From assembly GCF_988243305.1 (NCBI RefSeq), contig NZ_OZ547136.1: a stretch of DNA of 64,000 nucleotides, one strand, 5' to 3'. This document shows positions 18,946-37,817 of this stretch, one piece after another. The notes beneath the pieces are model-generated. The model did not search any database. It saw nothing but the letters and a program-made list of their open reading frames with translations, and was not told where the DNA came from. A program made the position numbers and the translations under genes. How positions within the stretch are numbered: position 1 is the first letter of the stretch; the number at the start of each line of letters is the position of its first letter.

Positions 18946-18958
18946 GCCAGGGGATGCT

Positions 18959-20443
18959 ATGGAAACCTTCCTTTCCCTTCGTCATATCAACAAAACGTTT
19001 CATGCCACGCGAGCGCTGCGCGATGTTTCTCTCGACTTTATGTCGGGTGAGGTGCACTGCCTTGCCGGGCAAAACGGCTGTGGTAAATCGACGTTGATTA
19101 AAATTATGTCCGGTGTTTATCGCCCGGATGAGGGGGCGGAAATTACGCTTGGTGGGAAAAACTGGTCAAAGCTGACACCCGCCGCTTCGGTGGCGCAGGG
19201 GATTCAGGTGATTTATCAGGACCTCTCTTTATTTCCTAACCTGAGTGTCTGGGAGAATATCGCCGTGAATCACTATCACCACGGTCTGTTTGTTAACCGC
19301 CGTCGTCTGCGTGAGGTGGCGCAGGCGGCAATGACCAGTATTAACGTCACATTGCCACTGGATACGCTCGTTTCTGAGCTTTCAATTGCCCGCTGTCAGC
19401 TGGTGGCAATTTGCCGTGCACTGGCGCAGGACGCACGGTTGATCGTGATGGATGAACCAACCGCTTCGCTGACCCATCAGGAAGTGCAAGGGTTATTACA
19501 GGTGGTGCATCAATTGCGGGAACGCGGGATCTGCGTGGTCTTCGTCAGTCATCGTCTGGAAGAAGTGATGGAAGTTTCCGACCGTATTTCAGTGCTGAAA
19601 GATGGTGAGCTGGTCGGGACCTTTCCGGCCGCAGAGATGACCACAAAACAACTCAGTTTTCTGATGACCGGCCAGGAGTTCGAATATCAGGTACGAGAGT
19701 TGTGGCAGGGAAAATCCAGCCCCCCGGTGCTGGAGGTGCGTAATTTAAGTCGTCATGGGGAATATCAAAATATTAACTTGCGGGTGGAAGCGGGCGAAGT
19801 GGTGTCGATTGTTGGCCTGCTTGGTGCGGGGCGCACGGAATTATGTCTGAGTCTGTTTGGTATGACCCGACCGGATGCTGGTGAGATCCTCATCAACGGT
19901 CAGCCGGTTACACTGCATAGTAACCAGGACGCCATCCGCCACGGTATTGGTTATGTTTCGGAAGATCGCATGTCGCGCGGTTTGGTGATGGCGCAATCTA
20001 TTGAAGACAACATCATTAGCACTGTTTTTCACAAGGTAAAAGATCGCTTCGGCTTTCTGAGTGAAGCTAAAGTGCGTGACCTGGTGGACAGGCTAATCAA
20101 GGCATTGACCATCAAAGTCTCTGACCCACATCTCCCGGTGAATACGCTTTCCGGGGGTAACGCGCAGCGAGTATCGATCGCCAAATGGCTGGCGATTGGG
20201 CCACGACTGTTGATTCTCGATAGCCCGACTGTCGGTGTTGATATCGCCAACAAAGCAGGAATATACGGCATTATCAGCGATCTGGCGGCTCATGGCATTG
20301 CGGTATTGATGATCTGCGATGAAATTGAAGAAGCGTGGTATCAAAGCCACCGGATTTTGGTAATGCAAAAAGGTCAGATCACCCATAGCTTCCTGCCTGA
20401 CAGCAGTTCTCAGGCCAGGATTGCGGAGGTGGTAAATGGCTGA
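18959..20443 (+). CDS. sugar ABC transporter ATP-binding protein (two nucleotide-binding domains)
   Basis: ORF 18944..20443; ATG at 18959 (METFLSL); Walker A GQNGCGKST; duplicated NBD typical of RbsA/LsrA. Confidence 0.85.
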   Translation: METFLSLRHINKTFHATRALRDVSLDFMSGEVHCLAGQNGCGKSTLIKIMSGVYRPDEGAEITLGGKNWSKLTPAASVAQGIQVIYQDLSLFPNLSVWENIAVNHYHHGLFVNRRRLREVAQAAMTSINVTLPLDTLVSELSIARCQLVAICRALAQDARLIVMDEPTASLTHQEVQGLLQVVHQLRERGICVVFVSHRLEEVMEVSDRISVLKDGELVGTFPAAEMTTKQLSFLMTGQEFEYQVRELWQGKSSPPVLEVRNLSRHGEYQNINLRVEAGEVVSIVGLLGAGRTELCLSLFGMTRPDAGEILINGQPVTLHSNQDAIRHGIGYVSEDRMSRGLVMAQSIEDNIISTVFHKVKDRFGFLSEAKVRDLVDRLIKALTIKVSDPHLPVNTLSGGNAQRVSIAKWLAIGPRLLILDSPTVGVDIANKAGIYGIISDLAAHGIAVLMICDEIEEAWYQSHRILVMQKGQITHSFLPDSSSQARIAEVVNG

Positions 20444-21407
20444 ACTGAAAAAACGCCATGAATTCTGGCTGGCATTACTGATTGTGGTGCTGTTTGTTGG
20501 CCTTGCCTGGCGCAGCGACGAGTTTCTGACATTCGGTAATTTGTACGATCTCGCCAATAACTATGCCATGTTGACTATTCTCGCCTGTGGTTTGTTTGTG
20601 GTGTTGATTTCCGGTGGAATTGATATTTCGTTTCCAGCAATGACCATCATTGCCCAATACGGCATGGTGCTGTTGCTGCAAAAAATTGGTGGCAACTTCG
20701 CTGTCGCGTTTGCCCTGGCGGGCGGCATCGGCATTTTACTTGGCTTAATTAACGCCTTACTGGTTAATCGCCTACGGGTGCCTTCTATCATCATCACTAT
20801 CTCGACGCTGAATATTTTCTATGGCCTGCTGTTATGGTTGAGTAAAGGTGTGTGGCTGTACGACTTTCCGCCGTGGTTTGAGCAGGGGGTTATGTTGTTC
20901 AAGTACACCGATGCTGATGGCTATGACTATGGCCTTGGTCTACCGCTGATCGCCATGATTACGGTGGTGCTGCTAACAGCGTTTATCATGAATTTCACCA
21001 GTGTAGGGCGCAAAATTTATGCCCTTGGCGGGAACCGCGAATCAGCCAGTCGCATCGGCTTTAGTGTGCTGAAACTGCAACTTTTCGTCTATGGCTATAT
21101 GGGATTGATGTCTGGTGCTGCGGGTGTAGTGCAGTCGTGGACGGTGATGACTGTCGCCCCCGATTCTCTTCTGGGTTATGAGCTGACAGTACTGGCTGCG
21201 GTGGTGCTTGGCGGCACTAGTTTGCTCGGCGGGCGCGGCACGTTAACCGGTACTTTGCTCGGCGTGGTGTTGTTGGCAGTGATGCAAAACGGGCTAAATT
21301 TATTGGGAGTCTCGTCTTACTGGCAAACATTGATCACCGGCATCATCATCGTTGCCAGCATTAGTGCCACGGCGTGGAGTCAGCATCAGAACCGGAGTCT
21401 GCTATGA
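20436..21407 (+). CDS. sugar ABC transporter permease
   Basis: 323-aa multi-TM ORF; start overlaps ATPase stop by 8 nt. Confidence 0.85.
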   Translation: MAELKKRHEFWLALLIVVLFVGLAWRSDEFLTFGNLYDLANNYAMLTILACGLFVVLISGGIDISFPAMTIIAQYGMVLLLQKIGGNFAVAFALAGGIGILLGLINALLVNRLRVPSIIITISTLNIFYGLLLWLSKGVWLYDFPPWFEQGVMLFKYTDADGYDYGLGLPLIAMITVVLLTAFIMNFTSVGRKIYALGGNRESASRIGFSVLKLQLFVYGYMGLMSGAAGVVQSWTVMTVAPDSLLGYELTVLAAVVLGGTSLLGGRGTLTGTLLGVVLLAVMQNGLNLLGVSSYWQTLITGIIIVASISATAWSQHQNRSLL

Positions 21408-22360
21408 AAAAATCGTGGCGTAACAACGTTGAGTTTTACTTGATCGGCCTGCTGGTGCTAACTGTTGCAGCCTTCAGCATTACTATGCCGGAGATTTTCT
21501 GGTCGATAAGTAATTTCCAGTCCGTCGCTTCGCAAATGCCCGTGCTGGGCATTCTGGCGTTGGCTATGGCGGTGACCATGCTTTGCGGTGGCATTAACTT
21601 GTCAATTATAGCCACTGCTAACGCCTGTTCACTGGTGATGGCGTGGGTGGCGACTCAGTATCCACCGGGTATTGCTACGGTTGTCGCTACGCTGCTGGCG
21701 GGCGCTGGCGCGGCGGTGATAATCGGTTTATGTAACGGCGTATTGATTGCTGGTATTCGAGTGTCGCCAATTCTTGCAACACTCGGGATGATGACGTTGC
21801 TCAAAGGGGTAAATATTCTGGTGACAGGCGGTAGCGCCATTGCCAATTATCCCTCATGGGTGCTGTGGTTGAATCATGCACAGTGGTTCGGTGTTCCGCT
21901 ACCGATGTGGTTGTTTACCGCAGTGTCGCTAGGGCTGTGGATATTGCTGGAGAAAACGCCGCTCGGTAAATCCATTTATCTGATTGGTTCTAACGAACGA
22001 GCAACACTTTACTCCGGCATTAACACTCGTCGGGTGCTGATTTGGGTGTATGTCATTTCCGCCTTGCTTTGTGCGGTAGCGGCATTTTTGATGATGTCGA
22101 AACTCAACTCGGCTAAGGCCTCTTATGGCGAATCGTACTTGCTGGTGTCAATCCTCGCGGCAGTACTCGGCGGGGTTAATCCGGACGGCGGCAGCGGGCG
22201 GATAATTGGTATGGTGCTGGCGCTGTTTCTTCTGCAAATTATTGAAAGCGGCTTCAATATTCTCGGTATAAGCCCCTACCTGACGATGGCCTTATGGGGA
22301 ACGTTGCTGCTCTGTTTCATTCAGGCTCGCGGCATGTTGGGGCTGGATCGGGTGGTTTAA
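21404..22360 (+). CDS. sugar ABC transporter permease
   Basis: ORF 21374..22360; ATG at 21404 (MKKSWRN) overlaps upstream stop as ATGA, ggag 6 nt upstream. Confidence 0.82.
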   Translation: MKKSWRNNVEFYLIGLLVLTVAAFSITMPEIFWSISNFQSVASQMPVLGILALAMAVTMLCGGINLSIIATANACSLVMAWVATQYPPGIATVVATLLAGAGAAVIIGLCNGVLIAGIRVSPILATLGMMTLLKGVNILVTGGSAIANYPSWVLWLNHAQWFGVPLPMWLFTAVSLGLWILLEKTPLGKSIYLIGSNERATLYSGINTRRVLIWVYVISALLCAVAAFLMMSKLNSAKASYGESYLLVSILAAVLGGVNPDGGSGRIIGMVLALFLLQIIESGFNILGISPYLTMALWGTLLLCFIQARGMLGLDRVV

Positions 22361-22446
22361 ATATTGGCTATATTCAATGGACGCGTTTTGCCGCGATGAC
22401 ATATCAGGCATCGCCAAATACACATAGCTAATCAGGAGTAAACACA

Positions 22447-23496
22447 ATGAAGATCAAAGCTGTTGGTGCATATTCCGCTAAACAACCACTTGAACCGATG
22501 GATATCACCCGGCGTGAACCGGGACCGCATGATGTCAAAATTGAAATCGCTTACTGTGGCGTCTGCCATTCCGATATCCACCAGGTCCGTTCCGAGTGGG
22601 CGGGGACGGTTTATCCCTGCGTGCCGGGCCATGAAATTGTAGGGCGCGTGGTAGCTGTTGGTGATCAGGTAGAAAAATATGCGCCGGGCGATCTGGTCGG
22701 TGTCGGCTGTATTGTCGACAGTTGTAAACATTGCGAAGAGTGTGAAGACGGGCTGGAAAACTACTGTGATCACATGACCGGCACCTATAACTCGCCGACG
22801 CCGGACGAACCGGGCCATACTCTGGGCGGCTACTCACAACAGATCGTCGTTCATGAGCGATATGTTCTGCGTATTCGTCACCCGCAAGAGCAGCTGGCGG
22901 CGGTGGCACCTTTGTTGTGTGCAGGGATCACCACGTATTCGCCGCTACGTCACTGGCAGGTCGGTCCGGGTAAAAAAGTGGGCGTGGTCGGCATCGGCGG
23001 TCTGGGACATATGGGGATTAAGCTGGCCCACGCGATGGGGGCGCATGTGGTGGCATTTACCACTTCTGAGTCAAAACGCGAAGCGGCAAAAGCCCTGGGG
23101 GCCGATGAAGTTGTTAACTCACGCAATGCCGATGAGATGGCGGCTCATCTCAAGAGTTTCGATTTCATTTTGAATACAGTAGCTGCGCCACATAATCTCG
23201 ACGATTTTACCACCTTGCTGAAGCGTGATGGCACCATGACGCTGGTTGGTGCGCCTGCGACACCGCATAAATCGCCGGAAGTTTTCAACCTGATCATGAA
23301 ACGCCGTGCGATAGCCGGTTCTATGATTGGCGGCATTCCAGAAACACAGGAGATGCTCGATTTTTGCGCCGAACATGGCATCGTGGCTGATATAGAGATG
23401 ATTCGGGCCGATCAAATTAATGAAGCCTATGAGCGAATGCTGCGTGGTGATGTGAAATATCGTTTTGTTATCGATAATTGCACACTAACAGACTGA
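22447..23496 (+). CDS. yahK: Zn-dependent alcohol dehydrogenase / aldehyde reductase
   Basis: 349-aa ORF; GHEIVG and CxxC zinc motifs; synteny. Confidence 0.93.
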   Translation: MKIKAVGAYSAKQPLEPMDITRREPGPHDVKIEIAYCGVCHSDIHQVRSEWAGTVYPCVPGHEIVGRVVAVGDQVEKYAPGDLVGVGCIVDSCKHCEECEDGLENYCDHMTGTYNSPTPDEPGHTLGGYSQQIVVHERYVLRIRHPQEQLAAVAPLLCAGITTYSPLRHWQVGPGKKVGVVGIGGLGHMGIKLAHAMGAHVVAFTTSESKREAAKALGADEVVNSRNADEMAAHLKSFDFILNTVAAPHNLDDFTTLLKRDGTMTLVGAPATPHKSPEVFNLIMKRRAIAGSMIGGIPETQEMLDFCAEHGIVADIEMIRADQINEAYERMLRGDVKYRFVIDNCTLTD

Positions 23497-23531
23497 AAAA
23501 ATTAATAAATATCCTGTGGTTTAACATATTA

Positions 23532-23573
23532 ATTTCGCTCTCCACTTAACTTTTTAGTTAAGGAGAGCGAAAT
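23532..23573. terminator. long palindrome downstream of yahK (terminator or binding site)
   Basis: Perfect 12-bp arms atttcgctctcc / ggagagcgaaat around an 18-nt loop; no clear T-run. Confidence 0.4.
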
Positions 23574-23738
23574 AATATCAAAGTAGCAGTAAAACCTATA
23601 ACGTAAATTCAAATTGTTAAATTAACTCCCTCCAGGACACAATACTTCACACGTTAGTTATGAGCGATTTCTGATAGTGCATGGTTTAATCAGGGCTTTA
23701 TTATCTGCGACGTTTATTTTTATTTAAGAGAGATCGCG

Positions 23739-24554
23739 ATGATATCATTAAAAGCTCCGCACAATAATTTGATGCCATATACGCAACAAAGCATACTTAA
23801 TACAGTAAAAAACAATCAGTTACCAGAGGATATCAAAAGCTCCCTGGTTTCCTGTGTCGATATATTCAAGGTTTTGATTAAACAATATTATGATTATCCT
23901 TATGATTGTCGTGATGATTTAGTCGATGACGACAAACTCATTCATCTCATGGCTGCCGTACGAGACTGTGAGTGGTCAGACGATAACGCACTCACCATAA
24001 ATGTGCAGTTTAATGATTTCCCAGGATTTTATGACTGGATGGATTACCCTGATCACCCGGTTAAGTTTGTTTTTCGCATACTTGAAAATCAAAAAGGGAC
24101 AGTTTGGGTATATGACCAGGATGATGCGTTTCTTGATATTAAAGCAAATGTGCAGGCTGGACGCTTTACCGGGCTTAAGAAATTAGTGCAGTTTATCGAT
24201 TCAGTGCGAACAGATTGCAAATGTATTCTTCTTGAACACCATATGCCTTTGCTGAGACTTTTCCCTAAAGGGAAAGAGTGTATGCATGTGGAAAAATGGC
24301 TTCGCGAAATGTCGTCTATTCCGGAGACCGACGCACCCATTAAGCAGGCGCTTGCGCATGGATTATTATTACACTTAAAAAATATCTACCCTGTTTTTCC
24401 TGAATCACTGGTGAGGTTATTGCTCTCTGTTCTGGACGTAAAAACATACAGAGATGATGCGCGATTAAATCAATGGATATCTAATAGAGTCCAGGAATTA
24501 GGTGACAGATATTATCCTGTAAATAAGCACGTTAAAATCCGCTACACTCTTTAG
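23739..24554 (+). CDS. yahL: uncharacterized protein
   Basis: 271-aa ORF in AT-rich low-GC context; synteny. Confidence 0.8.
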   Translation: MISLKAPHNNLMPYTQQSILNTVKNNQLPEDIKSSLVSCVDIFKVLIKQYYDYPYDCRDDLVDDDKLIHLMAAVRDCEWSDDNALTINVQFNDFPGFYDWMDYPDHPVKFVFRILENQKGTVWVYDQDDAFLDIKANVQAGRFTGLKKLVQFIDSVRTDCKCILLEHHMPLLRLFPKGKECMHVEKWLREMSSIPETDAPIKQALAHGLLLHLKNIYPVFPESLVRLLLSVLDVKTYRDDARLNQWISNRVQELGDRYYPVNKHVKIRYTL

Positions 24555-24966
24555 TTCAGAAAGGGTTCCACCTGCGAGTTGTTATTCCACCAGAGAGTGA
24601 ATCGCAAAGCAGGTAATCATTTCATCTGTATATCCGTATGCCAAATGGCATTCCACCGCCTTTTTCGCCGATATTTTGTTGTGATCGGCGACGCTTCGCT
24701 TAAAAAAGCATCAGCAGTGGTTTCGCAGCTATACAGTGTATAAAAAATGATCTCATGCAGATGTTTTGTGAATGTGTGGGTTGACATTCATATGAAAAAA
24801 ATCATAATTCCATCATGTTTGTGTGGGGTCTTTTCTGTATCTTACGCATCGCACTCAAGCCTGACAGAAAATATGCTGTAAGGCTCATATCAAAAACCGC
24901 CATTAGCTCATCAGGAAGAGCAGACGACAACCAGGATTGTTGTATGGTACGGGGTTCGAGGCCTCG

Positions 24967-25212
24967 ATGGCGGTCCAACTTTTCATAACTCTTCTGAATC
25001 AGATCCCCTTATTATCATCCCTGCAAAGTGGAACATTGCCATTGTTTGGCTATTCAGGACGGGTCAGAGCAATGAAAAAAGCCCACACAGGGGAGAGTGG
25101 GCTGAAATGGGAAGCTAAAGACTCAAGTAAACTTATCGGAAATAAGGACCACGCATTACGGGGGCTATCATCGCCGATGGTCGGGATTCGGCAAATCAGG
25201 TTGATTACGTAG
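24967..25212 (+). CDS. yahM: small uncharacterized protein
   Basis: ORF 24937..25212; ATG at 24967 gives MAVQLFITLLNQ, 81 aa; synteny. Confidence 0.65.
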   Translation: MAVQLFITLLNQIPLLSSLQSGTLPLFGYSGRVRAMKKAHTGESGLKWEAKDSSKLIGNKDHALRGLSSPMVGIRQIRLIT

Positions 25213-25228
25213 AGAGTAAATTATCTGC

Positions 25229-25900
25229 TCACCGCTGCGTCACCCCTTCGTAAATCAGGCGTAGCGCGAATACACCAATAATTGCACCAATAACCCGACT
25301 GGCAACGCGTTGCATACGCCCATAAGCACGACGCACTGCGGGCAAAGAAAACGCCTGACTAAGAAAGACTCGCCAGATAATTGATGCGAGTACAATCCCC
25401 GCCCAGGCCATTAAACGTGCCCATGTTGGTGTTTCGGCATTTAATGTTACTGAGAAAATACTGATAAAAAATAAAACGGTTTGCGGGTTAGAGAGATCGG
25501 TAATTAATCCGCGGCGAAAAAAAACATACCAGGGGGCGTTAATCGGTTGTTGTAGTGTGCTCATTTGCGGTGTTGACTGGCGGCGCATGCTGCACCACGC
25601 AAACCATAAGAGATAAGCGCCGCCGACGATTCTGATAAGCGAAAAAATCTCCTCGCACTGCGTAATTAACGTCGCCAAACCAAACAAACCCAACCCGGAA
25701 TAAAACGCATCGCCCAGCGCCACGCCCAGCCCGGTCAGCACCCCTGCGCGTCGACCGGAAGCCAGGCTGGTTTGTACTACCACAAAGAGATTGGCTCCCG
25801 GATTAAAAAAAGTAATCACGAACAGTCCTACGGTCAGGTAAACGGCGTGCAAAGGATCCATAGTGATTTCATCCATAAATAAGTGAAGTAACTTCATCAT
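25229..25900 (-). CDS. yahN: LysE/RhtB-family amino-acid exporter
   Basis: 223-aa hydrophobic ORF; synteny. Confidence 0.88.
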   Translation of the reverse strand: MMKLLHLFMDEITMDPLHAVYLTVGLFVITFFNPGANLFVVVQTSLASGRRAGVLTGLGVALGDAFYSGLGLFGLATLITQCEEIFSLIRIVGGAYLLWFAWCSMRRQSTPQMSTLQQPINAPWYVFFRRGLITDLSNPQTVLFFISIFSVTLNAETPTWARLMAWAGIVLASIIWRVFLSQAFSLPAVRRAYGRMQRVASRVIGAIIGVFALRLIYEGVTQR

Positions 25901-26046
25901 ATTTCTACCAAAAATAATCGGGTGCGAGAGAGATCACAAAGTGTCTTATTTCCGGTTACTGGCGTTTATGCCCTGACTGAACTAATTATTAATCAACCCA
26001 ATAATGTGGGTGGGTGATAGTGTGATAACAACTCTGGAGCCGTAAT

Positions 26047-26322
26047 ATGAAAATAATCTCTAAAATGTTAGTCGGTGCGTTAGCGTTTGCCGTTACCAAT
26101 GTCTATGCCGCAGAATTAATGACCAAAGCGGAATTTGAAAAGGTTGAATCGCAATATGAAAAAATAGGTGATATTTCAACCAGTAATGAAATGTCGACTG
26201 CAGATGCAAAAGAAGATTTAATCAAAAAAGCCGATGAAAAAGGGGCTGATGTGTTGGTACTGACCTCCGGTCAAACTGACAATAAGATCCACGGCACGGC
26301 AAATATTTATAAGAAGAAGTAA
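26047..26322 (+). CDS. yahO: small periplasmic protein (DUF1471 family)
   Basis: 91-aa ORF with signal peptide [21 protein letters not shown]. Confidence 0.85.
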
Positions 26323-26388
26323 TTCTGAATCCTATGTAAACATCCCCGATGCGTAAGTTTATCGGTGATCATCATCTATTGAAATTTA

Positions 26389-26421
26389 TGCCGGATAAAG
26401 CGTTCGCGCTGCATTCGGCAG
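26389..26421. repeat. REP-like palindromic element
   Basis: tgccggataaagcgttcgcgctgcattcggcag imperfect palindrome between convergent yahO and prpR. Confidence 0.5.
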
Positions 26422-26422
26422 T

Positions 26423-28009
26423 TCAGTTTTTCAGCCGCCGCCAGAACGTCGTCCGGCTTATGCCTAAATAATTCGCCGCTGCTGTTTTATCGCCTTTAAA
26501 TTTCTCCAGTGCCTGTTGTGGTGTCAGTAAGCGTGGAGCGGGAATTTTCGCCGACTCGCGCGCCAGTTCCGGCAGTAGCAGCTGCAAAAATTGCGGCGTT
26601 AAATCCGGCGTCGGTTCCACACTTAAAAACAGCGCCAGTCGCTCCATCATATTGCGCAGTTCACGAATATTGCCCGGCCAGTCGTAGTGCACCAGCACGG
26701 TTTCGCTTGCCTGTAACCCCTGGCGTAATGCGGCAGAAAACGGGGCGGAGAGCGCCGCCAGAGACACTTTCAAAAAGCTTTCCGCCAGCGGCAGAATATC
26801 CGCCACCCGCTCGCGCAGTGGTGGCAATTGCAGACGCAAAATACTCAGCCGATAAAACAGATCACGGCGAAAACGTCCTTGCTGCATATCTTCTTCCAGA
26901 TTGCAGTGAGTGGCGCTAATGACCCGCACATCTAACGGAACAGGCTGATGCCCGCCGACGCGGGTGACCTCTTTTTCTTCCAGCACCCGTAACAGGCGAG
27001 TCTGCAACGGTAGCGGCATTTCGCCAATCTCATCCAGAAACAGCGTACCGCCGTGGGCAATTTCGAACAGCCCGGCGCGACCTCCACGTCGCGAGCCGGT
27101 GAACGCCCCTTCCTCATAGCCAAACAGCTCTGCTTCCAGCAGCGATTCGGCAATCGCCCCGCAGTTGACGGCAACAAACGGATGCGACTTTTTGCCCTGT
27201 CGCGCATCGTGGCGGGCAAAATATTCCCGATGAATCGCCTGGGCCGCCAGCTCTTTGCCCGTCCCCGTTTCCCCTTCAATCAACACCGCTGCACTGGAGC
27301 GGGCATACAGCAAAATAGTCTGCCGTACCTGTTCCATCTGTGGTGATTGACCGAGCATATCGCCCAGCACGTAACGAGTACGCAGGGCGTTGCGGGTGGC
27401 ATCGTGAGTGTTATGGCGTAACGACATGCGCGTCATATCCAGCGCATCGCTGAATGCCTGGCGCACGGTGGCGGCGGAATAGATAAAAATTCCGGTCATT
27501 CCGGCTTCTTCTGCCAAATCGGTAATCAGCCCCGCGCCGACCACCGCTTCGGTGCCGTTAGCTTTCAGCTCGTTAATCTGCCCGCGCGCGTCTTCTTCGG
27601 TAATGTAGCTACGTTGGTCGAGGCGCAAATTAAAGGTTTTTTGAAACGCCACTAGCGCCGGAATAGTTTCCTGATAAGTCACAACGCCGATAGAAGAGGT
27701 GAGTTTTCCGGCTTTTGCCAGTGCCTGTAACACATCGTAGCCGCTCGGTTTAATCAAAATAACTGGCACTGACAGGCGGCTTTTAAGATATGCGCCGTTA
27801 GAGCCAGCAGCGATGATGGCGTCGCAGCGTTCGCTGGCCAGTTTTTTGCGGATGTAGGTCACCGCTTTTTCAAAGCCAAGCTGGATAGGGGTAATGTTCG
27901 CCAGATGATCAAACTCGAGGCTGATATCGCGAAACAGCTCGAACAGGCGCGTTACAGATACCGTCCAGATAACCGGTTTGTCGTCATTCAGCCGTGGTGG
28001 ATGTGCCAT
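26423..28009 (-). CDS. prpR: sigma54-dependent activator of the prp operon
   Basis: ORF 26423..28021; ATG at 28009 gives [15 protein letters not shown]; AAA+ sigma54-activator motifs (GETGTGKE) and C-terminal HTH. Confidence 0.93.
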
Positions 28010-28049
28010 AGCGCACCGCAAAGTTAAGAAACCGAATATTGGGTTTAGT

Positions 28050-28112
28050 CTTGTTTCATAATTGTTGCAATGAAACGCGGTGAAACATTGCCTGAAACGT
28101 TAACTGAAACGC
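28050..28112. promoter_or_regulatory. putative PrpR enhancer (repeated TGAAAC motifs)
   Basis: Palindrome gtttcat-N12-atgaaac followed by three further tgaaac repeats, upstream of the sigma54 promoter. Confidence 0.5.
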
Positions 28113-28185
28113 ATATTTGCGGATTACTTCATGACTATATTGCTAACAAATTGAAATTAAACATTTAATTTTATTAAGACAATTG

Positions 28186-28200
28186 TGGCACACCCCTTGC
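28186..28200 (+). promoter_or_regulatory. sigma54 (-24/-12) promoter of prpBCDE
   Basis: TGGCAC-N5-TTGC at 28186..28200, about 48 nt upstream of the prpB ATG. Confidence 0.75.
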
Positions 28201-28247
28201 TTTGTGTTTATCAACGCAAATAACAAGTTGATAACAAAGGATGGGCT

Positions 28248-29138
28248 ATGTCTCTACACTCTCCAGGTAAAGCGTTTCGCGCTGCACTGACTAAAGAAAA
28301 TCCATTGCAGATTGTTGGCACCATTAACGCTAACCATGCGCTGCTGGCGCAGCGTGCCGGATATCAGGCGATTTATCTTTCCGGCGGTGGCGTGGCGGCA
28401 GGTTCGCTGGGGCTGCCGGATCTCGGTATTTCTACCCTTGATGACGTGCTGACAGATATTCGCCGTATCACCGACGTTTGTTCGCTGCCGCTGCTGGTGG
28501 ATGCGGATATCGGTTTTGGTTCTTCTGCTTTTAACGTGGCGCGCACCGTGAAATCGATGATTAAAGCCGGTGCGGCAGGACTGCATATTGAAGATCAGGT
28601 TGGTGCGAAACGCTGCGGTCATCGCCCGAACAAAGCGATCGTCTCGAAAGAGGAAATGGTGGATCGGATCCGCGCGGCGGTGGATGCGAAAACCGATCCT
28701 GATTTTGTGATCATGGCGCGCACCGATGCGCTGGCAGTAGAGGGGCTGGACGCCGCGATCGAGCGTGCGCAGGCCTATGTTGAAGCGGGTGCCGAGATGT
28801 TGTTCCCGGAGGCGATTACCGAACTCGCCATGTACCGCCAGTTTGCCGATGCGGTGCAGGTGCCGATCCTCGCCAACATCACCGAATTTGGTGCAACACC
28901 GCTGTTTACCACCGACGAATTACGCAGCGCCCATGTTGCAATGGCGCTGTACCCGCTTTCAGCGTTTCGCGCCATGAACCGCGCCGCCGAACATGTCTAC
29001 AACGTCCTGCGTCAGGAAGGCACGCAGAAAAGCGTCATCGACACCATGCAAACCCGCAACGAGCTGTACGAAAGCATCAATTACTACCAGTACGAAGAGA
29101 AGCTCGACGACCTGTTTGCCCGTAGCCAGGTGAAATAA
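28248..29138 (+). CDS. prpB: 2-methylisocitrate lyase
   Basis: 296-aa ORF, PEP mutase/isocitrate lyase family; synteny. Confidence 0.95.
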
Positions 29139-29182
29139 AACACAACGAAAAATATCTCGACCCTACAAATGACGAGGACAAT

Positions 29183-30352
29183 ATGAGCGACACAACGATC
29201 CTGCAAAACAGTACCCATGTCATTAAACCGAAAAAATCGGTGGCACTTTCTGGCGTTCCGGCGGGCAATACGGCGCTCTGCACCGTGGGTAAAAGTGGCA
29301 ATGATTTGCATTACCGAGGCTACGACATTCTTGATCTGGCGGAACATTGCGAATTTGAAGAAGTGGCGCATCTGCTGATCCACGGCAAACTGCCGACCCG
29401 TGACGAACTCGCCGCCTACAAAACGAAACTGAAAGCCCTGCGCGGTTTACCGGCTAACGTGCGTACCGTGCTGGAAGCCTTACCGGCGGCGTCGCACCCG
29501 ATGGATGTTATGCGCACCGGCGTTTCCGCGCTCGGCTGCACGCTGCCAGAAAAAGAGGGGCATACCGTCTCTGGCGCGCGGGATATTGCCGACAAACTGC
29601 TGGCGTCACTTAGCTCGATTCTTCTCTACTGGTATCACTACAGCCACAACGGCGAACGCATTCAGCCGGAAACCGATGACGACTCCATCGGCGGTCACTT
29701 CCTGCATCTGCTGCATGGCGAAAAGCCGTCGCAAAGCTGGGAAAAGGCGATGCATATTTCGCTGGTGCTGTACGCCGAACACGAGTTTAACGCCTCCACC
29801 TTTACCAGCCGGGTGATTGCGGGCACCGGCTCTGATATGTATTCCGCGATTATTGGCGCGATTGGTGCACTGCGCGGGCCGAAGCACGGCGGGGCGAATG
29901 AAGTGTCGCTGGAGATCCAGCAACGCTACGAAACGCCGGACGAAGCCGAAGCCGATATCCGCAAGCGGGTGGAAAACAAAGAAGTGGTCATTGGTTTTGG
30001 TCATCCGGTTTATACCATCGCCGACCCGCGTCATCAGGTGATCAAACGTGTGGCGAAGCAGCTCTCGCAGGAAGGCGGCTCGCTGAAGATGTACAACATC
30101 GCCGATCGCCTGGAAACGGTGATGTGGGAGAGCAAAAAGATGTTCCCCAATCTCGACTGGTTCTCTGCTGTTTCCTACAACATGATGGGCGTTCCCACCG
30201 AGATGTTCACCCCACTGTTTGTTATCGCCCGCGTCACCGGCTGGGCGGCGCACATTATCGAACAACGTCAGGACAACAAAATTATCCGTCCTTCCGCCAA
30301 TTATGTTGGACCGGAAGACCGCCAGTTTGTCGCTCTGGATAAGCGCCAGTAA
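29183..30352 (+). CDS. prpC: 2-methylcitrate synthase
   Basis: 389-aa ORF, citrate synthase family; synteny. Confidence 0.95.
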
Positions 30353-30385
30353 ACCTCTACGAATAACAATAAGGAAACGTACCCA

Positions 30386-31837
30386 ATGTCAGCTCAAATC
30401 AACAACATCCGCCCGGAATTTGATCGTGAAATCGTTGATATCGTCGATTACGTCATGAACTACGAAATCAGCTCCAAAGTAGCCTACGATACCGCCCATT
30501 ACTGCCTGCTCGACACTCTCGGCTGCGGTCTTGAAGCTCTCGAATACCCAGCCTGTAAAAAACTGCTGGGGCCAATTGTCCCCGGCACCGTCGTACCTAA
30601 CGGCGTGCGCGTCCCCGGAACTCAGTTCCAGCTCGACCCCGTCCAGGCGGCATTTAACATCGGCGCGATGATCCGTTGGCTCGATTTCAACGATACCTGG
30701 CTGGCGGCGGAGTGGGGCCATCCTTCCGACAACCTCGGCGGCATTCTGGCAACGGCGGACTGGCTTTCGCGCAACGCGGTCGCCAGCGGCAAAGCGCCGT
30801 TGACCATGAAGCAGGTGCTGACCGCAATGATTAAAGCCCATGAAATTCAGGGCTGCATCGCGCTGGAAAACTCCTTTAACCGCGTCGGCCTCGACCACGT
30901 TCTGTTAGTGAAAGTGGCTTCCACCGCCGTGGTCGCCGAAATGCTCGGCCTGACCCGCGAGGAAATTCTCAACGCCGTTTCGCTGGCGTGGGTGGACGGT
31001 CAGTCGCTGCGCACCTATCGCCATGCGCCGAACACCGGCACGCGTAAATCCTGGGCGGCGGGCGATGCCACTTCCCGCGCGGTACGTCTGGCACTGATGG
31101 CGAAAACGGGTGAAATGGGTTACCCGTCAGCCCTGACTGCGCCTGTGTGGGGCTTCTACGACGTCTCCTTCAAAGGTGAATCGTTCCGCTTCCAGCGCCC
31201 GTACGGTTCTTACGTCATGGAAAATGTGCTGTTCAAAATCTCCTTCCCGGCGGAGTTCCACTCCCAGACGGCAGTTGAAGCAGCGATGACGCTCTATGAA
31301 CAGATGCAGGCAGCAGGCAAAACGGCGGCAGATATCGAAAAAGTGACCATTCGCACCCACGAAGCCTGTATTCGCATCATCGACAAAAAAGGACCGCTCA
31401 ATAACCCGGCAGACCGCGATCACTGCATTCAGTACATGGTGGCGATCCCGCTGCTATTCGGGCGCTTAACGGCGGCAGATTACGAAGACAACGTTGCGCA
31501 AGATAAACGCATTGACGCCCTGCGCGAGAAGATCAATTGCTTTGAAGATCCGGCGTTTACCGCTGACTACCACGACCCGGAAAAACGCGCCATCGCCAAT
31601 GCCATAACCCTTGAGTTCACCGACGGCACGCGATTTGAAGAAGTGGTAGTGGAGTACCCAATTGGTCATGCTCGCCGCCGTCAGGATGGCATTCCGAAAC
31701 TGGTCGATAAATTCAAAATCAATCTCACGCGCCAGTTCCCGACTCGCCAGCAGCAGCGCATTCTGGAGGTTTCTCTCGACAGAGCTCGCCTGGAACAGAT
31801 GCCGGTCAATGAGTATCTCGACCTGTATGTCATTTAA
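30386..31837 (+). CDS. prpD: 2-methylcitrate dehydratase
   Basis: 483-aa ORF; synteny. Confidence 0.95.
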
Positions 31838-31876
31838 GTAAACGGCGGTAAGGCGTAAGTTCAACAGGAGAGCATT

Positions 31877-33763
31877 ATGTCTTTTAGCGAATTTTATCAG
31901 CGTTCGATTAACGAACCGGAGCAGTTCTGGGCCGAGCAGGCCCGGCGTATTGACTGGCAGACGCCCTTTACGCAAACGCTCGATCACAGCAATCCGCCGT
32001 TTGCCCGTTGGTTTTGTGAAGGCCGAACCAACTTGTGTCACAACGCTATCGACCGCTGGCTGGAGAAACAGCCAGAGGCGCTGGCGCTGATTGCCGTCTC
32101 TTCGGAAACAGAAGAAGAGCGCACCTTTACCTTTCGTCAGCTGCATGACGAAGTGAACGCGGTGGCCTCAATGTTGCGTTCATTGGGCGTGCAGCGTGGC
32201 GATCGGGTGCTGGTGTATATGCCGATGATTGCCGAAGCGCATATTACTCTGCTGGCCTGCGCGCGCATTGGCGCTATTCACTCGGTGGTGTTTGGTGGAT
32301 TTGCCTCGCACAGCGTGGCGGCGCGAATTGATGATGCTAAACCGGTGCTAATTGTCTCGGCTGATGCCGGAGCGCGCGGTGGCAAAATCATTCCCTATAA
32401 AAAATTACTCGACGATGCGATAAGTCAGGCGCAGCACCAGCCACGCCATGTTTTGCTGGTGGATCGCGGGCTGGCGAAAATGGCACGCGTCAGCGGGCGG
32501 GATGTCGATTTCGCGTCGTTGCGCCATCAACACATCGGCGCGCGGGTACCGGTGGCGTGGCTGGAATCCAACGAAACCTCCTGCATTCTCTACACTTCCG
32601 GCACGACCGGCAAACCTAAAGGCGTGCAGCGTGACGTCGGCGGATATGCGGTGGCGCTGGCGACCTCGATGGACACTATTTTTGGCGGCAAAGCGGGCGG
32701 TGTGTTCTTTTGTGCTTCGGATATCGGCTGGGTGGTGGGGCATTCGTATATCGTCTACGCGCCGCTGCTGGCGGGGATGGCGACTATCGTTTACGAAGGA
32801 TTGCCGACCTGGCCGGACTGCGGCGTGTGGTGGAAAATCGTCGAGAAATATCAGGTGAGCCGAATGTTCTCAGCGCCAACCGCCATTCGCGTGCTGAAAA
32901 AATTCCCTACCGCCGAAATTCGCAAACACGATCTCTCGTCGCTGGAAGTGCTCTATCTGGCGGGGGAGCCGCTGGACGAGCCGACCGCCAGTTGGGTGAG
33001 CAATACGCTGGATGTGCCGGTCATCGACAACTACTGGCAGACCGAATCCGGCTGGCCGATTATGGCGATTGCTCGCGGTCTGGACGACAGGCCGACGCGT
33101 CTGGGAAGCCCCGGCGTGCCGATGTATGGCTATAACGTGCAGTTGCTTAATGAAGTCACCGGCGAACCGTGTGGCGTCAACGAGAAAGGGATGCTGGTGG
33201 TGGAAGGGCCGCTGCCGCCGGGGTGTATTCAGACCATCTGGGGCGACGACGACCGCTTTGTGAAGACGTACTGGTCGCTGTTTTCCCGCCCGGTGTACGC
33301 CACCTTTGACTGGGGCATCCGTGACGCTGACGGTTATCACTTTATTCTCGGGCGCACTGACGATGTAATTAACGTTGCCGGGCATCGGCTGGGGACGCGC
33401 GAGATTGAAGAGAGTATCTCCAGTCATCCGGGCGTTGCCGAAGTGGCGGTGGTTGGGGTGAAAGATGCGCTGAAAGGGCAGGTGGCGGTGGCGTTTGTCA
33501 TTCCGAAAGAGAGCGACAGTCTGGAAGACCGAGACGTGGCGCACTCGCAAGAGAAGGCGATTATGGCGCTGGTGGACAGCCAGATTGGCAACTTTGGTCG
33601 CCCGGCGCACGTCTGGTTTGTCTCGCAATTGCCGAAAACGCGATCCGGAAAAATGCTGCGCCGCACGATCCAGGCAATTTGCGAAGGACGCGATCCTGGG
33701 GATCTGACGACCATTGATGATCCTGCGTCATTGGATCAGATCCGCCAGGCGATGGAAGAGTAA
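31877..33763 (+). CDS. prpE: propionyl-CoA synthetase
   Basis: 628-aa ORF with acyl-CoA synthetase motifs (YTSGTTGKPKG). Confidence 0.95.
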   Translation: MSFSEFYQRSINEPEQFWAEQARRIDWQTPFTQTLDHSNPPFARWFCEGRTNLCHNAIDRWLEKQPEALALIAVSSETEEERTFTFRQLHDEVNAVASMLRSLGVQRGDRVLVYMPMIAEAHITLLACARIGAIHSVVFGGFASHSVAARIDDAKPVLIVSADAGARGGKIIPYKKLLDDAISQAQHQPRHVLLVDRGLAKMARVSGRDVDFASLRHQHIGARVPVAWLESNETSCILYTSGTTGKPKGVQRDVGGYAVALATSMDTIFGGKAGGVFFCASDIGWVVGHSYIVYAPLLAGMATIVYEGLPTWPDCGVWWKIVEKYQVSRMFSAPTAIRVLKKFPTAEIRKHDLSSLEVLYLAGEPLDEPTASWVSNTLDVPVIDNYWQTESGWPIMAIARGLDDRPTRLGSPGVPMYGYNVQLLNEVTGEPCGVNEKGMLVVEGPLPPGCIQTIWGDDDRFVKTYWSLFSRPVYATFDWGIRDADGYHFILGRTDDVINVAGHRLGTREIEESISSHPGVAEVAVVGVKDALKGQVAVAFVIPKESDSLEDRDVAHSQEKAIMALVDSQIGNFGRPAHVWFVSQLPKTRSGKMLRRTIQAICEGRDPGDLTTIDDPASLDQIRQAMEE

Positions 33764-33768
33764 GGTAT

Positions 33769-35065
<1,297 letters not shown>

Positions 35066-35066
35066 C

Positions 35067-35125
<59 letters not shown>

Positions 35126-35202
35126 CCACTACCCACTGTTTTTACACCGATAATTTTTCCCCCACCTTTTTGCACTCATTCATATAAAAAATATATTTCC
35201 CC

Positions 35203-35216
35203 ACGAAAACGATTGC
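35203..35216. promoter_or_regulatory. putative PurR operator in the codBA promoter
   Basis: acgaaaacgattgc resembles the PurR box ACGCAAACGTTTGC, about 70 nt upstream of the codB GTG. Confidence 0.55.
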
Positions 35217-35284
35217 TTTTTATCTTCAGATGAATAGAATGCGGCGGATTTTTTGGGTTTCAAACAGCAAAAAGGGGGAATTTC

Positions 35285-36544
35285 GTGTCGCAAGATAACA
35301 ACTTTAGCCAGGGGCCAGTCCCGCAGTCGGCGCGGAAAGGGGTATTGGCATTGACGTTCGTCATGCTGGGATTAACCTTCTTTTCCGCCAGTATGTGGAC
35401 CGGCGGCACTCTCGGAACCGGTCTTAGCTATCATGATTTCTTCCTCGCAGTCCTCATCGGTAATCTTCTCCTCGGTATTTACACTTCATTTCTTGGTTAC
35501 ATTGGCGCAAAAACCGGCCTGACCACTCATCTTCTTGCTCGCTTCTCTTTTGGTGTTAAAGGCTCATGGCTGCCTTCACTGCTGCTGGGCGGCACCCAGG
35601 TTGGCTGGTTTGGCGTTGGCGTGGCGATGTTTGCCATTCCGGTGGGCAAGGCAACTGGGCTGGATATTAATTTGCTGATTGCCGTTTCCGGTTTACTGAT
35701 GACCGTCACCGTCTTCTTTGGCATTTCGGCGCTAACGGTTCTTTCGGTGATTGCAGTTCCGGCTATCGCCTGTCTTGGCGGTTATTCCGTGTGGTTGGCC
35801 GTTAACGGCATGGGCGGCCTGGACGCATTAAAAGCGGTCGTTCCCGCACAACCGTTAGATTTCAATGTCGCGCTGGCGCTGGTTGTGGGGTCATTTATCA
35901 GTGCGGGCACGCTCACCGCTGACTTTGTCCGGTTTGGTCGTAATGCCAAACTGGCGGTGCTAGTGGCGATGGTGGCCTTTTTCCTCGGCAACTCGTTGAT
36001 GTTTATTTTCGGTGCAGCGGGCGCGGCGGCACTGGGGATGGCGGATATCTCTGATGTGATGATTGCTCAGGGTCTGCTGCTGCCTGCGATTGTGGTGCTG
36101 GGGCTGAATATCTGGACCACCAACGATAACGCACTTTATGCGTCGGGTTTAGGTTTCGCCAACATTACCGGTATGTCGAGTAAAACCCTTTCGGTGATTA
36201 ACGGTATTATCGGTACGGTCTGCGCATTATGGTTGTATAACAATTTTGTCGGCTGGCTGACCTTCCTTTCGGCAGCTATTCCTCCGGTAGGGGGCGTGAT
36301 CATCGCTGACTATCTGATGAACCGTCGCCGCTATGAGCACTTTGCGACCACGCGTATGATGAGTGTCAATTGGGTGGCGATTCTGGCGGTCGCCTTGGGG
36401 ATTGCCGCAGGCCACTGGTTACCGGGAATTGTTCCGGTCAACGCGGTATTAGGTGGCGCGCTGAGCTATCTGATCCTTAACCCGATTTTGAATCGCAAAA
36501 CGACGGCTGCAATGACGCATGTGGAGGCTAACAGTGTCGAATAA
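35285..36544 (+). CDS. codB: cytosine permease
   Basis: 419-aa multi-TM ORF, GTG start; synteny. Confidence 0.95.
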
Positions 36545-37817
36545 CGCTTTACAGACAATTATTAACGCCCGGTTACCCGGCAAAGAGGGGCTGTGGCAGA
36601 TTCATCTGCTGGACGGAAAAATCAGCGCCATTGATGCGCAATCCGGGGTGATGCCCATAACTGAAAACAGCCTGGATGCCGAACAAGGTTTAGTTATACC
36701 GCCGTTTGTGGAGCCACATATTCACCTGGACACCACGCAAACCGCCGGACAACCGAACTGGAATCAGTCCGGCACGCTGTTTGAAGGCATTGAACGCTGG
36801 GCCGAGCGCAAAGCGTTATTAACCCATGACGATGTGAAACAACGCGCCTGGCAAACGCTGAAATGGCAGATTGCCAACGGCATTCAGCATGTGCGTACCC
36901 ATGTCGATGTTTCGGATGCAACGCTGACTGCGCTGAAAGCAATGCTGGAAGTGAAGCAGGAAGTCGCGCCGTGGATTGATCTGCAAATCGTCGCCTTCCC
37001 GCAGGAAGGGATTTTGTCGTATCCCAACGGTGAAGCGTTGCTGGAAGAGGCGTTACGCTTAGGGGCAGACGTAGTGGGGGCGATTCCGCATTTTGAATTT
37101 ACCCGCGAATACGGCGTGGAGTCGCTGCATAAAACCTTCGCCCTGGCGCAAAAATACGACCGTCTCATCGACGTTCACTGTGATGAGATCGATGACGAGC
37201 AGTCGCGCTTTGTCGAAACCGTTGCTGCCCTGGCGCACCGTGAAGGAATGGGCGCGCGAGTCACCGCTAGCCACACTACGGCAATGCACTCCTATAACGG
37301 GGCGTATACCTCACGCTTGTTCCGTTTGCTGAAAATGTCCGGTATTAACTTTGTCGCCAACCCGCTGGTCAATATTCATCTGCAAGGACGTTTCGATACG
37401 TATCCAAAACGTCGCGGCATCACGCGCGTTAAAGAGATGCTGGAGTCCGGCATTAACGTCTGCTTTGGTCACGATGATGTCTTCGATCCGTGGTATCCAC
37501 TGGGAACGGCGAATATGCTGCAAGTGCTGCATATGGGGCTGCATGTTTGTCAGTTGATGGGCTACGGGCAGATTAACGACGGCCTGAATTTAATCACCCA
37601 CCATAGCGCCAGGACGTTGAATTTGCAGGATTACGGCATTGCCGCCGGAAACAGCGCCAACCTGATTATCCTGCCGGCTGAAAATGGGTTTGATGCGCTG
37701 CGCCGTCAGGTTCCGGTGCGCTATTCGGTACGTGGCGGTAAGGTGATTGCCAGCACCCAACCAGCACAAACCACCGTATATCTGGAGCAGCCAGAAGCCA
37801 TCGATTACAAACGGTAA
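36534..37817 (+). CDS. codA: cytosine deaminase
   Basis: ORF 36519..37817; GTG at 36534 gives [16 protein letters not shown] (427 aa); overlaps codB by 11 nt; amidohydrolase HxH motif. Confidence 0.94.

What the first reader, a model, noticed from the sequence alone, without database searches (positions are those of the whole stretch)
28022..28247. Sigma54 promoter plus four TGAAAC repeats upstream of prpB
TGGCAC-N5-TTGC (28186..28200) sits about 48 nt upstream of the prpB ATG. Further upstream, a palindrome gtttcat-N12-atgaaac is followed by three more tgaaac copies (28051..28110), the layout expected for an enhancer bound by the sigma54 activator PrpR, whose gene is divergently placed.
Basis: partly seen in the sequence, partly recalled or inferred. 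Interest (0 to 1): 0.3.

Follow-up and report, generated by a model that had tools for sequence, protein, structure and literature searches.

The report
Known E. coli prpBCDE sigma-54 promoter/enhancer
This is the well-studied control region of the E. coli propionate-breakdown operon (a sigma-54 promoter, with binding sites for its activator PrpR upstream), so it is real but ordinary; the one point of interest is that E. coli arranges the PrpR sites differently from Salmonella, where they were mapped.

Summary
TGGCAC-N5-TTGC lies at 28186..28200, 47 nt before the prpB ATG (28248). One GTTTCA (28053) and four TGAAAC (28071, 28081, 28093, 28105) fill 58 bp. No dinucleotide shuffle out of 2000 gave more than 3 copies in such a span. 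One correction: the 7-mer arms gtttcat/atgaaac are 10 nt apart; the hexamers are 12 apart.

The window is E. coli chromosome (yah-prpR/prpBCDE-cod-cyn-lac). Its intergenic region differs from K-12 at 6 of 238 positions, none in the motifs. The divergent gene encodes PrpR (PrpR_N, sigma-54 AAA+ and HTH_8 domains).

In 25 related prpR-prpB spacers, from Escherichia to Providencia, Morganella and Herbaspirillum, the sigma-54 box is always present. GTTTCA/TGAAAC is the only hexamer found at least 3 times in every spacer.

The literature held here gives the PrpR enhancer as CGTTTCATGAAACG, places an RpoN-holoenzyme gSELEX peak in this spacer, and states that sigma-54, IHF, PrpR/2-methylcitrate and CRP are required.

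One nuance: Escherichia lacks the contiguous 14-bp palindrome found in Citrobacter and Salmonella. Its left half reads ATTGCC, and the hexamers form a same-direction array spaced 10, 12 and 12 bp. Interest is low.

The parts
26423..28009 (-). prpR, 528 aa: the sigma-54 enhancer-binding activator (PrpR_N sensor domain, AAA+ sigma-54 interaction domain with GAFTGS loop, Fis-type HTH_8)
   Evidence: Translation, Pfam and RefSeq annotation of near-identical genomes.
28053..28076 (.). Distal dyad GTTTCA-N12-TGAAAC (7-mer arms GTTTCAT/ATGAAAC with a 10-nt spacer): inferred PrpR site. It lies 44-67 bp upstream of the prpR ATG, so it probably also overlaps the prpR promoter.
   Evidence: I9. It is identical across 11 Escherichia sequences. 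The two hexamers and most of the spacer (xxxxTGTTGCAA) are conserved in Citrobacter, Salmonella, Kluyvera and Pluralibacter.
28081..28110 (+). Three same-direction TGAAAC hexamers (28081, 28093, 28105), spaced 12 and 12 bp and lying 10 bp after the TGAAAC of the dyad: inferred PrpR sites. Position 28093 is homologous to the right half of the Citrobacter/Salmonella palindrome CGTTTCATGAAACG. Position 28105 corresponds to TGACAC there, and 28081 to (A)GGAAC.
   Evidence: Only 1 of 30 hexamer columns varies within Escherichia.
28144..28156 (-). IHF-like site TTTCAATTTGTTA (WATCAA-N4-TTR, 1 mismatch) in the 76% A+T stretch between enhancer and promoter, centred about -62 from the predicted start.
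   Evidence: Across 11 Escherichia sequences the flanks TAA and TTGAAA are kept while the N4 varies. The IHF requirement is reported for Salmonella (review PMC5566544). The site assignment is an inference.
28186..28200 (+). Sigma-54 -24/-12 promoter element TGGCACACCCCTTGC of prpBCDE, with GG at 28187-88 and GC at 28199-28200. Predicted transcription start is about 28212.
   Evidence: It is conserved in 46 of 49 fetched loci, at the homologous place. A gSELEX RpoN peak falls in this spacer (PMC8743547). The start position is inferred from the -12 convention, not mapped here.
28208..28234 (.). 8-bp perfect inverted repeat TTATCAAC-N11-GTTGATAA spanning the predicted start to about +23. It contains a perfect IHF consensus (TATCAACTTGTTA, minus strand, 28221..28233). 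Its role is unknown.
   Evidence: (I6, D1; as RNA the hairpin is not unusually stable, z = -1.15). It is conserved in Escherichia, Citrobacter and Kluyvera.
28248..33763 (+). prpBCDE operon: prpB 28248..29138, prpC 29183..30352, prpD 30386..31837, prpE 31877..33763.
   Evidence: ORFs, Pfam and annotation of a near-identical genome.

Best explanation
The region 28010..28247 is the divergent prpR-prpBCDE control region of E. coli.

Proposed mechanism:
1. RNA polymerase carrying sigma-54 binds TGGCAC-N5-TTGC (28186..28200) as a closed complex.
2. PrpR, encoded by the divergent gene, binds the GTTTCA/TGAAAC hexamer array (28053..28110, about -160 to -100 from the predicted start) through its C-terminal Fis-type helix-turn-helix.
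3. When 2-methylcitrate is present, PrpR assembles into an active AAA+ oligomer.
4. The A+T-rich, IHF-like segment (28111..28185) bends the DNA so that PrpR touches the polymerase.
5. ATP hydrolysis opens the promoter and prpBCDE is transcribed.
6. CRP adds catabolite control in the same spacer.

Shown here: the motifs, their non-random clustering, their conservation, and the domain make-up of PrpR.
Taken from the literature: the dependence on sigma-54, IHF, PrpR, 2-methylcitrate and CRP, and the footprint-derived consensus.
Inferred: that each E. coli hexamer is a PrpR contact, which IHF site is used, and the transcription start.
For: - The motifs are at the stated coordinates.
- The cluster of 5 hexamers in 58 bp was never approached in 2000 shuffles and is unique among all hexamers in the window.
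- The spacer is almost identical to K-12, with 6 differences in 238 positions and none in the motifs. It is present in 5218 of 5426 complete E. coli genomes.
- PrpR has PrpR_N, Sigma54_activat, AAA_lid and HTH_8 domains, and prpB-E have the expected enzyme domains.
- In 25 related spacers from 7 or more genera, the sigma-54 box is always present and GTTTCA/TGAAAC is the only hexamer occurring at least 3 times in all 26 spacers (14 of 14 representatives), always about 80 to 235 bp upstream of the -24 element.
- In Massilia, where prpR is not next to the sigma-54 promoter, a hexamer cluster still sits upstream of that promoter.
- The HTH recognition helix ISRTT[F/L]WRRL is invariant across these taxa.
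- Within Escherichia 1 of 30 hexamer columns varies, against 35 of 75 columns between the enhancer and the -24 element.
- Literature: PrpR enhancer CGTTTCATGAAACG (PMC4987338); RpoN holoenzyme gSELEX peak in the prpR/prpB spacer (PMC8743547); requirement for sigma-54, IHF, PrpR with 2-methylcitrate, and CRP (PMC5566544; PMC13213109); a CRP site overlapping the PrpR operator (PMC9452892).
Against: - The published 14-bp consensus is absent from the window. The best match at the homologous place has 3 mismatches, so the E. coli array is not simply the mapped Salmonella site.
- In the papers I could read I found no direct PrpR-DNA binding data for E. coli. The primary papers (Palacios & Escalante-Semerena 2000 and 2004; Lee et al. 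2005) are not in the held library.
- The whole block 28038..28121 is conserved within Escherichia, not only the hexamers, so some of the conservation may serve CRP or the prpR promoter.
- The IHF-like sites each have 1 mismatch in A+T-rich DNA, where such matches are easy to find.
Confidence: 0.9

Rival explanations
1. The TGAAAC repeats are operators for Cra (FruR), the catabolite repressor/activator, whose half-site is TGAA(A/T)C, rather than PrpR sites or in addition to them.
For: The Cra motif gcTGAAtCGaTTCAgc (PMC5888115) shares TGAA-C with the repeats. PMC5829826, citing Shimada et al. 2011, says a Cra binding site in the prpB regulatory region was already known.
Against: The same paper could not detect Cra binding to prpB DNA by gel shift. 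'prp' does not occur in the main text of the Cra ChIP-exo paper. The best alignments of the window repeats to the 16-bp Cra motif reach only 8 of 16 positions (my count), and no TGAAAC-GTTTCA palindrome in the Cra orientation exists. The hexamer cluster accompanies PrpR and the sigma-54 promoter across Providencia, Morganella, Herbaspirillum and Massilia in varying arrangements.
Confidence: 0.07
2. The conserved block mainly serves the divergent prpR promoter and its CRP site. On this reading the hexamers are incidental parts of sigma-70 -35/-10 elements and a CRP box.
For: CRP control of both promoters from a single site in this spacer is reported (PMC3105977). That site is said to overlap the PrpR operator, and the two promoters are described as overlapping and divergent (PMC9452892). 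Weak sigma-70-like hexamer pairs (7-8 of 12 matches) on the minus strand all overlap the array. Non-hexamer positions in 28038..28121 are also conserved.
Against: No match to TGTGA-N6-TCACA inside the repeat array is better than 4 mismatches, a level found about 35 times per kb in this window. The standard sigma-70 scan finds nothing. This reading does not explain why the same hexamer recurs 3 to 8 times in distant taxa whose spacers are otherwise unrelated. It is compatible with the main explanation as an overlapping function, not a replacement.
Confidence: 0.03

Closest known systems
Salmonella enterica prpR-prpBCDE control region (Horswill & Escalante-Semerena 1997; Palacios & Escalante-Semerena 2000, 2004)
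   Same: The gene order is the same: divergent prpR and prpBCDE. The -24/-12 element is the same type, TGGCA(C/T)-N5-TTGC, about 47-49 nt before the prpB ATG. The distal dyad GTTTCA-N12-TGAAAC is shared, with the spacer positions TGTTGCAA conserved, as is the half-site and the HTH recognition helix.
   Different: Salmonella arizonae and most Citrobacter carry the contiguous palindrome CGTTTCATGAAACG as the promoter-proximal site. Escherichia has ATTGCC where the left half would be, and has perfect TGAAAC at two flanking positions that are degenerate elsewhere (AGGAAC, TGACAC). This gives four same-direction hexamers. The array also lies 23-37 bp closer to the -24 element in Escherichia.
Other sigma-54 enhancer-binding-protein systems with multi-site upstream activating sequences and IHF-assisted looping (NtrC-glnAp2, NorR-norVW, NifA-nifH)
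   Same: An activator with an AAA+ sigma-54 interaction domain and a Fis-type HTH. Several binding sites lie about 100-160 bp upstream of a -24/-12 promoter, with an A+T-rich IHF-like segment between them.
   Different: The sensor domain is PrpR_N and the ligand is 2-methylcitrate, not a receiver, GAF or V4R domain. The recognition unit is the hexamer GTTTCA/TGAAAC, which occurs in both orientations and with variable spacing among taxa.

Membership tests
Sigma-54 (-24/-12) promoter | GG and GC dinucleotides exactly 10 bp apart within TGGCAC-N5-TTGC(W), on the strand of the regulated gene and upstream of it | tested here: met
   TGGCACACCCCTTGCT at 28186..28201, + strand, 47 nt before the prpB ATG.
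Sigma-54 (-24/-12) promoter | Conservation of the element at the orthologous position | tested here: met
   One match at the homologous place and on the prpB strand in 46 of 49 fetched loci. The 3 without a match are the Janthinobacterium locus L042, where no prpB was found, the 5'-truncated Kluyvera fragment L034 and the 288-nt fragment L043.
Sigma-54 (-24/-12) promoter | Bound by sigma-54 holoenzyme, with transcription dependent on rpoN | not testable with these tools
   Reported by others: an RpoN holoenzyme gSELEX peak in the K-12 prpR/prpB spacer (PMC8743547), and ntrA dependence in Salmonella (Palacios 2000, as cited in PMC5566544).
PrpR-dependent enhancer (upstream activating sequence) | A cognate activator gene with PrpR_N, a sigma-54 AAA+ domain and a Fis-type HTH | tested here: met
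   Pfam PF06506 (1.2e-51), PF00158 (3.2e-65) and PF02954 (1.2e-10) in the divergent 528-aa ORF.
PrpR-dependent enhancer (upstream activating sequence) | Contains the published PrpR enhancer sequence CGTTTCATGAAACG | tested here: not met
   No match with fewer than 3 mismatches in the spacer. The exact 14-mer is present in 10 Citrobacter/Salmonella loci. The half-site GTTTCA/TGAAAC is present 5 times.
PrpR-dependent enhancer (upstream activating sequence) | Clustered recognition half-sites about 80-200 bp upstream of the promoter, conserved among orthologous loci | tested here: met
   5 hexamers lie at -134 to -82 relative to the -24 GG. The same hexamer occurs at least 3 times in 26 of 26 spacers, and no other hexamer does so. 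The cluster is never reached in shuffles.
PrpR-dependent enhancer (upstream activating sequence) | Direct binding of PrpR to these sites, and loss of activation when they are mutated | not testable with these tools
   A footprint is reported for Salmonella only (Palacios & Escalante-Semerena 2004, as cited in PMC4987338). That primary paper is not held.
IHF-assisted DNA looping | An IHF site (WATCAA-N4-TTR) between enhancer and promoter | tested here: inconclusive
   Three overlapping 1-mismatch matches at 28144..28170 in 76% A+T DNA. For the 28144..28156 site the flanks are conserved and the N4 is variable within Escherichia. The only perfect match lies downstream of the promoter (28221..28233).
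Cra (FruR) operator | Match to gcTGAAtCGaTTCAgc, with a conserved left half and a recognisable right half | tested here: not met
   The best alignments reach 8 of 16 positions, counted by hand against the motif. A gel shift by others was negative (PMC5829826).

The most novel reading that the evidence does not exclude
PrpR may recognise single GTTTCA hexamers in either orientation rather than a fixed palindrome. The Escherichia lineage has remodelled the enhancer: the promoter-proximal palindrome, which I recall from the 2004 abstract as the higher-affinity site in Salmonella, lost its left half, and two flanking degenerate hexamers became perfect. The result is a same-direction array spaced 10, 12 and 12 bp. 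This rewiring could explain why the E. coli PprpB system gave about three-fold lower expression than the Salmonella-based one (Lee & Keasling 2006, as summarised in PMC5566544). It would also make PrpR a tractable case of enhancer-architecture turnover under an invariant DNA-reading helix.
Probability: 0.35. Interest if true: 0.3.

Novelty: already known. Interest (0 to 1): 0.12.

Why it matters
The finding correctly re-identifies a textbook sigma-54 control region, which also underlies the pPro propionate-inducible expression vectors and propionate biosensors, so it adds no new biology in itself.

The one useful by-product is comparative. The PrpR recognition hexamer and the protein's reading helix are invariant from E. 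coli to Betaproteobacteria. The number, orientation and spacing of the hexamers change between lineages, and E. coli lacks the palindrome usually quoted as 'the' PrpR site. Anyone engineering PprpB sensors, or predicting PrpR regulons with the 14-mer consensus, should take this into account.

Tried and rejected
- Primary papers. I tried to read Palacios & Escalante-Semerena 2000 and 2004, Lee et al. 2005 and Shimada et al. 2011. None is held, so the mapped sites are known to me only through secondary citations.
- S. enterica subsp. enterica locus. I searched protein homologues hoping to reach it. The top 120 hits were all Escherichia, Citrobacter or Kluyvera, so I used subsp. arizonae and diarizonae from the genome scan instead.
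- CRP site. A consensus scan gave nothing better than 4 mismatches inside the repeat array, which is background level, so I did not place the CRP site.
- prpR promoter. The sigma-70 scan found none, and a looser scan gave only 7-8 of 12 matches, so it is left unassigned.
- RNA families. An Rfam scan of 27500..28800 gave no hit.
- 5'UTR inverted repeat. Folded as RNA it is not unusually stable (z = -1.15).
- Chance origin of the repeats. Rejected by shuffling.
- Cra operator reading. Rejected as the main explanation.

Full report
**What is in the sequence.**
- TGGCAC-N5-TTGC occupies 28186..28200 on the + strand. The prpB ATG is at 28248, 47 nt downstream (ORF 28248..29138).
- GTTTCA is at 28053..28058. 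TGAAAC is at 28071, 28081, 28093 and 28105.
- One detail is off. The 7-mer arms GTTTCAT/ATGAAAC are separated by 10 nt (I9); 12 is the spacing of the 6-mers.

**Is it more than chance?**
- TGAAAC is not enriched in the window as a whole (39 matches against 36.7 expected). Five copies within 58 bp is what is exceptional.
- In 2000 dinucleotide-preserving shuffles the largest cluster in any 60-bp span was 3. No other hexamer in the window forms a 5-copy cluster.
- The exact sigma-54 pattern occurs once in 64 kb. With TGGCAY there is a second match, antisense inside lacA, against 0.69 expected.

**Where the window comes from.**
- The window is E. coli chromosome: bet-yah-prpR/prpBCDE-codBA-cyn-lac-mhp.
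- The 238-nt prpR-prpB spacer differs from K-12 MG1655 at 6 positions, none in the hexamers or the sigma-54 box.
- The spacer is present in 5218 of 5426 complete E. coli genomes.
- The divergent ORF (26423..28009, minus strand) is PrpR, with PrpR_N, Sigma54_activat, AAA_lid and HTH_8 domains. The downstream ORFs have the domains expected of PrpB, PrpC, PrpD and PrpE.

**Comparative evidence.** A scan of one genome per species with the PrpR N-terminal region returned 43 loci. Divergent prpR-prpB synteny holds in nearly all of them. I extracted 25 spacers, from Escherichia, Citrobacter, Salmonella, Kluyvera, Pluralibacter, Providencia, Morganella, a proteobacterial MAG and Herbaspirillum, and oriented them like the window.
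- Every spacer has TGGCA(C/T)-N5-TTGC at 46-76 nt before the prpB ATG, with one exception at 189 nt. Across all 49 loci then held, the box occurs at the homologous place in 46.
- An unbiased count of all hexamers shows GTTTCA/TGAAAC is the only one present at least 3 times in all 26 spacers (14 of 14 genus-level representatives). The next best, ATGAAA and CGTTTC, are overlapping extensions of it.
- The hexamers always lie about 80-235 bp upstream of the -24 element.
- In Massilia, prpR is not adjacent to the sigma-54 promoter. One hexamer trio sits at the prpR start and another upstream of the distant sigma-54 box.
- The HTH recognition helix ISRTT[F/L]WRRL is invariant from E. coli to Herbaspirillum and Massilia, which fits an invariant recognition hexamer.
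- Within Escherichia (11 sequences), 1 of 30 hexamer columns varies and 3 of 28 spacer columns in the array vary. By contrast 35 of 75 columns vary between the array and the -24 element.

**What the literature says.** The primary papers are not in the held library, so I rely on papers that cite them.
- PMC4987338 Table 1 lists the PrpR enhancer as CGTTTCATGAAACG and the signal as 2-methylcitrate, citing Palacios & Escalante-Semerena 2004.
- PMC5566544 summarises that PprpB needs PrpR, 2-methylcitrate, sigma-54 and IHF and is directly CRP-dependent. It also reports that the Salmonella-based system gave about three-fold higher expression than the E. coli one.
- PMC13213109 describes PrpR binding an enhancer-like element and contacting sigma-54 polymerase through a DNA loop.
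- PMC8743547 reports an RpoN-holoenzyme gSELEX peak in the K-12 prpR/prpB spacer at map position 347,864. By my arithmetic this corresponds to about 28206 in the window. That conversion assumes the older K-12 coordinate of the prpB start, 347,906, which I recall from memory.
- PMC9452892 states that a CRP site overlaps the PrpR operator and that the two promoters overlap divergently.
- PMC3105977 lists prpR-prpBCDE among divergent pairs served by a single CRP site.

The region is therefore already known.

**Mechanism.**
- Sigma-54 polymerase sits on the -24/-12 element as a closed complex.
- PrpR bound to the hexamer array, about -160 to -100 from the predicted start at roughly 28212, oligomerises when 2-methylcitrate is present.
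- The 76% A+T segment 28111..28185 carries IHF-like sites. The best candidate is TTTCAATTTGTTA at 28144..28156 on the minus strand. Its flanks are conserved while its N4 varies within Escherichia.
- Bending of this segment would bring PrpR to the polymerase, and ATP hydrolysis then opens the promoter.
- The distal dyad lies only 44-67 bp from the prpR ATG. PrpR binding probably also affects prpR transcription. This is an inference, though it agrees with the K-12 annotation 'dual regulator'.

**The one nuance.** The UAS segments of 13 enteric sequences line up almost without gaps. Relative to the first GTTTCA, the hexamer starts are as follows, where < marks GTTTCA and > marks TGAAAC.

| Lineage | Hexamer positions |
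|---|---|
| Citrobacter / Salmonella | 0<, 18>, 34<, 40>, plus degenerate copies at 28 (AGGAAC) and 52 (TGACAC) |
| Escherichia | 0<, 18>, 28>, 40>, 52>, with ATTGCC at position 34 |

- The 34<40> pair in Citrobacter and Salmonella is the published palindrome.
- The contiguous 14-mer is therefore absent from the window (at least 3 mismatches). It is exact in 10 Citrobacter/Salmonella loci.
- Positions 34< and 52> in Citrobacter and Salmonella have the same GTTTCA-N12-TGA(A/C)AC geometry as the distal dyad.
- More distant taxa use yet other layouts. Morganella has six same-direction GTTTCA followed by a palindrome. Herbaspirillum has four same-direction copies spaced 12, 12 and 11 bp.
- This suggests the hexamer, not the palindrome, is the unit PrpR reads, and that enhancer architecture turns over between lineages. 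I could not establish whether this has been noted before. It is a modest observation, not a new kind of system.

**Rivals.**
- *Cra/FruR.* Cra shares the TGAA-C half-site. PMC5829826, citing Shimada et al. 2011, says a Cra site in the prpB regulatory region was already known. However, the same paper found no binding by gel shift, the ChIP-exo study does not mention prp, and the window repeats match only 8 of 16 positions of the Cra motif.
- *CRP and the prpR promoter.* These almost certainly overlap the array, but I could not place them by consensus. They also do not explain recurrence of the hexamer in unrelated spacers.
- *Chance.* Excluded by shuffling.

**Verdict.** The feature is already known and interest is low.

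Noticed in passing
window 28208..28234 (and 28144..28161): An 8-bp perfect inverted repeat, TTATCAAC-N11-GTTGATAA, spans the predicted prpB start to about +23. It contains the only perfect IHF consensus in the spacer (TATCAACTTGTTA, minus strand, 28221..28233). The segment TAACAAGTTGATAACAAA is a 78% direct repeat of the upstream IHF-like segment TAACAAATTGAAATTAAA. It is conserved in Escherichia, Citrobacter and Kluyvera and degenerate in Salmonella. Its function is unknown.
   Followed up: partly
window 34036..35016 (+): A 326-aa ORF between prpE and codB corresponds by position to an 'IS110-like element IS621 family transposase' in the near-identical genome NZ_AP028094.1. K-12 has no such insertion annotated between prpE and codB, as I recall (not checked here).
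   Followed up: partly
window 41901..41915 (+): A second match to TGGCAY-N5-TTGC (TGGCATGTTCATTGC) lies antisense inside lacA. With 0.69 expected by chance in the window, I treated it as a chance or intragenic match.
   Followed up: partly
L049 (E. coli SCPM-O-B-9504, NZ_CP144930.1 3929290-3932485): Two IS1A copies interrupt the locus. The match to the window spacer stops at query position 196, just after the sigma-54 box. prpR is annotated as an N-terminal fragment and prpB is displaced, so the operon is probably uncoupled from its promoter in this strain.
   Followed up: no
protein search, (e.g. P0100, P0103, P0082): Many E. coli PrpR clusters are 423-457 aa long and lack the AAA-lid and HTH_8 domains. 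They are truncated alleles that would not bind DNA, which suggests recurrent inactivation of prpR in some lineages, or fragmented assemblies.
   Followed up: no
L043 (NZ_VLXZ01000153.1, 288 nt): A 288-nt contig labelled Alkalicoccobacillus porphyridii, at low coverage, encodes a stretch 100% identical to E. coli PrpR residues 97-192. This is most likely contamination of that assembly.
   Followed up: no
L028 (Massilia glaciei) 75..243 and 2404..2426: prpR is separated from the sigma-54 promoter by two minus-strand ORFs (557 aa and 102 aa). One GTTTCA/TGAAAC trio sits at the prpR start, and another lies about 130-150 bp upstream of a minus-strand sigma-54 box at 75..89. The hexamer cluster therefore travels with the promoter, not with prpR.
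   Followed up: partly
window 1..50000 versus complete E. coli genomes: The closest complete genomes are only about 98.7% identical over 25-kb stretches, although the 241-nt spacer has a 100% match in strain ETEC1738. The region looks mosaic among E. coli lineages. Nine matches to the prpR-prpB region are on records typed as plasmids.
   Followed up: no
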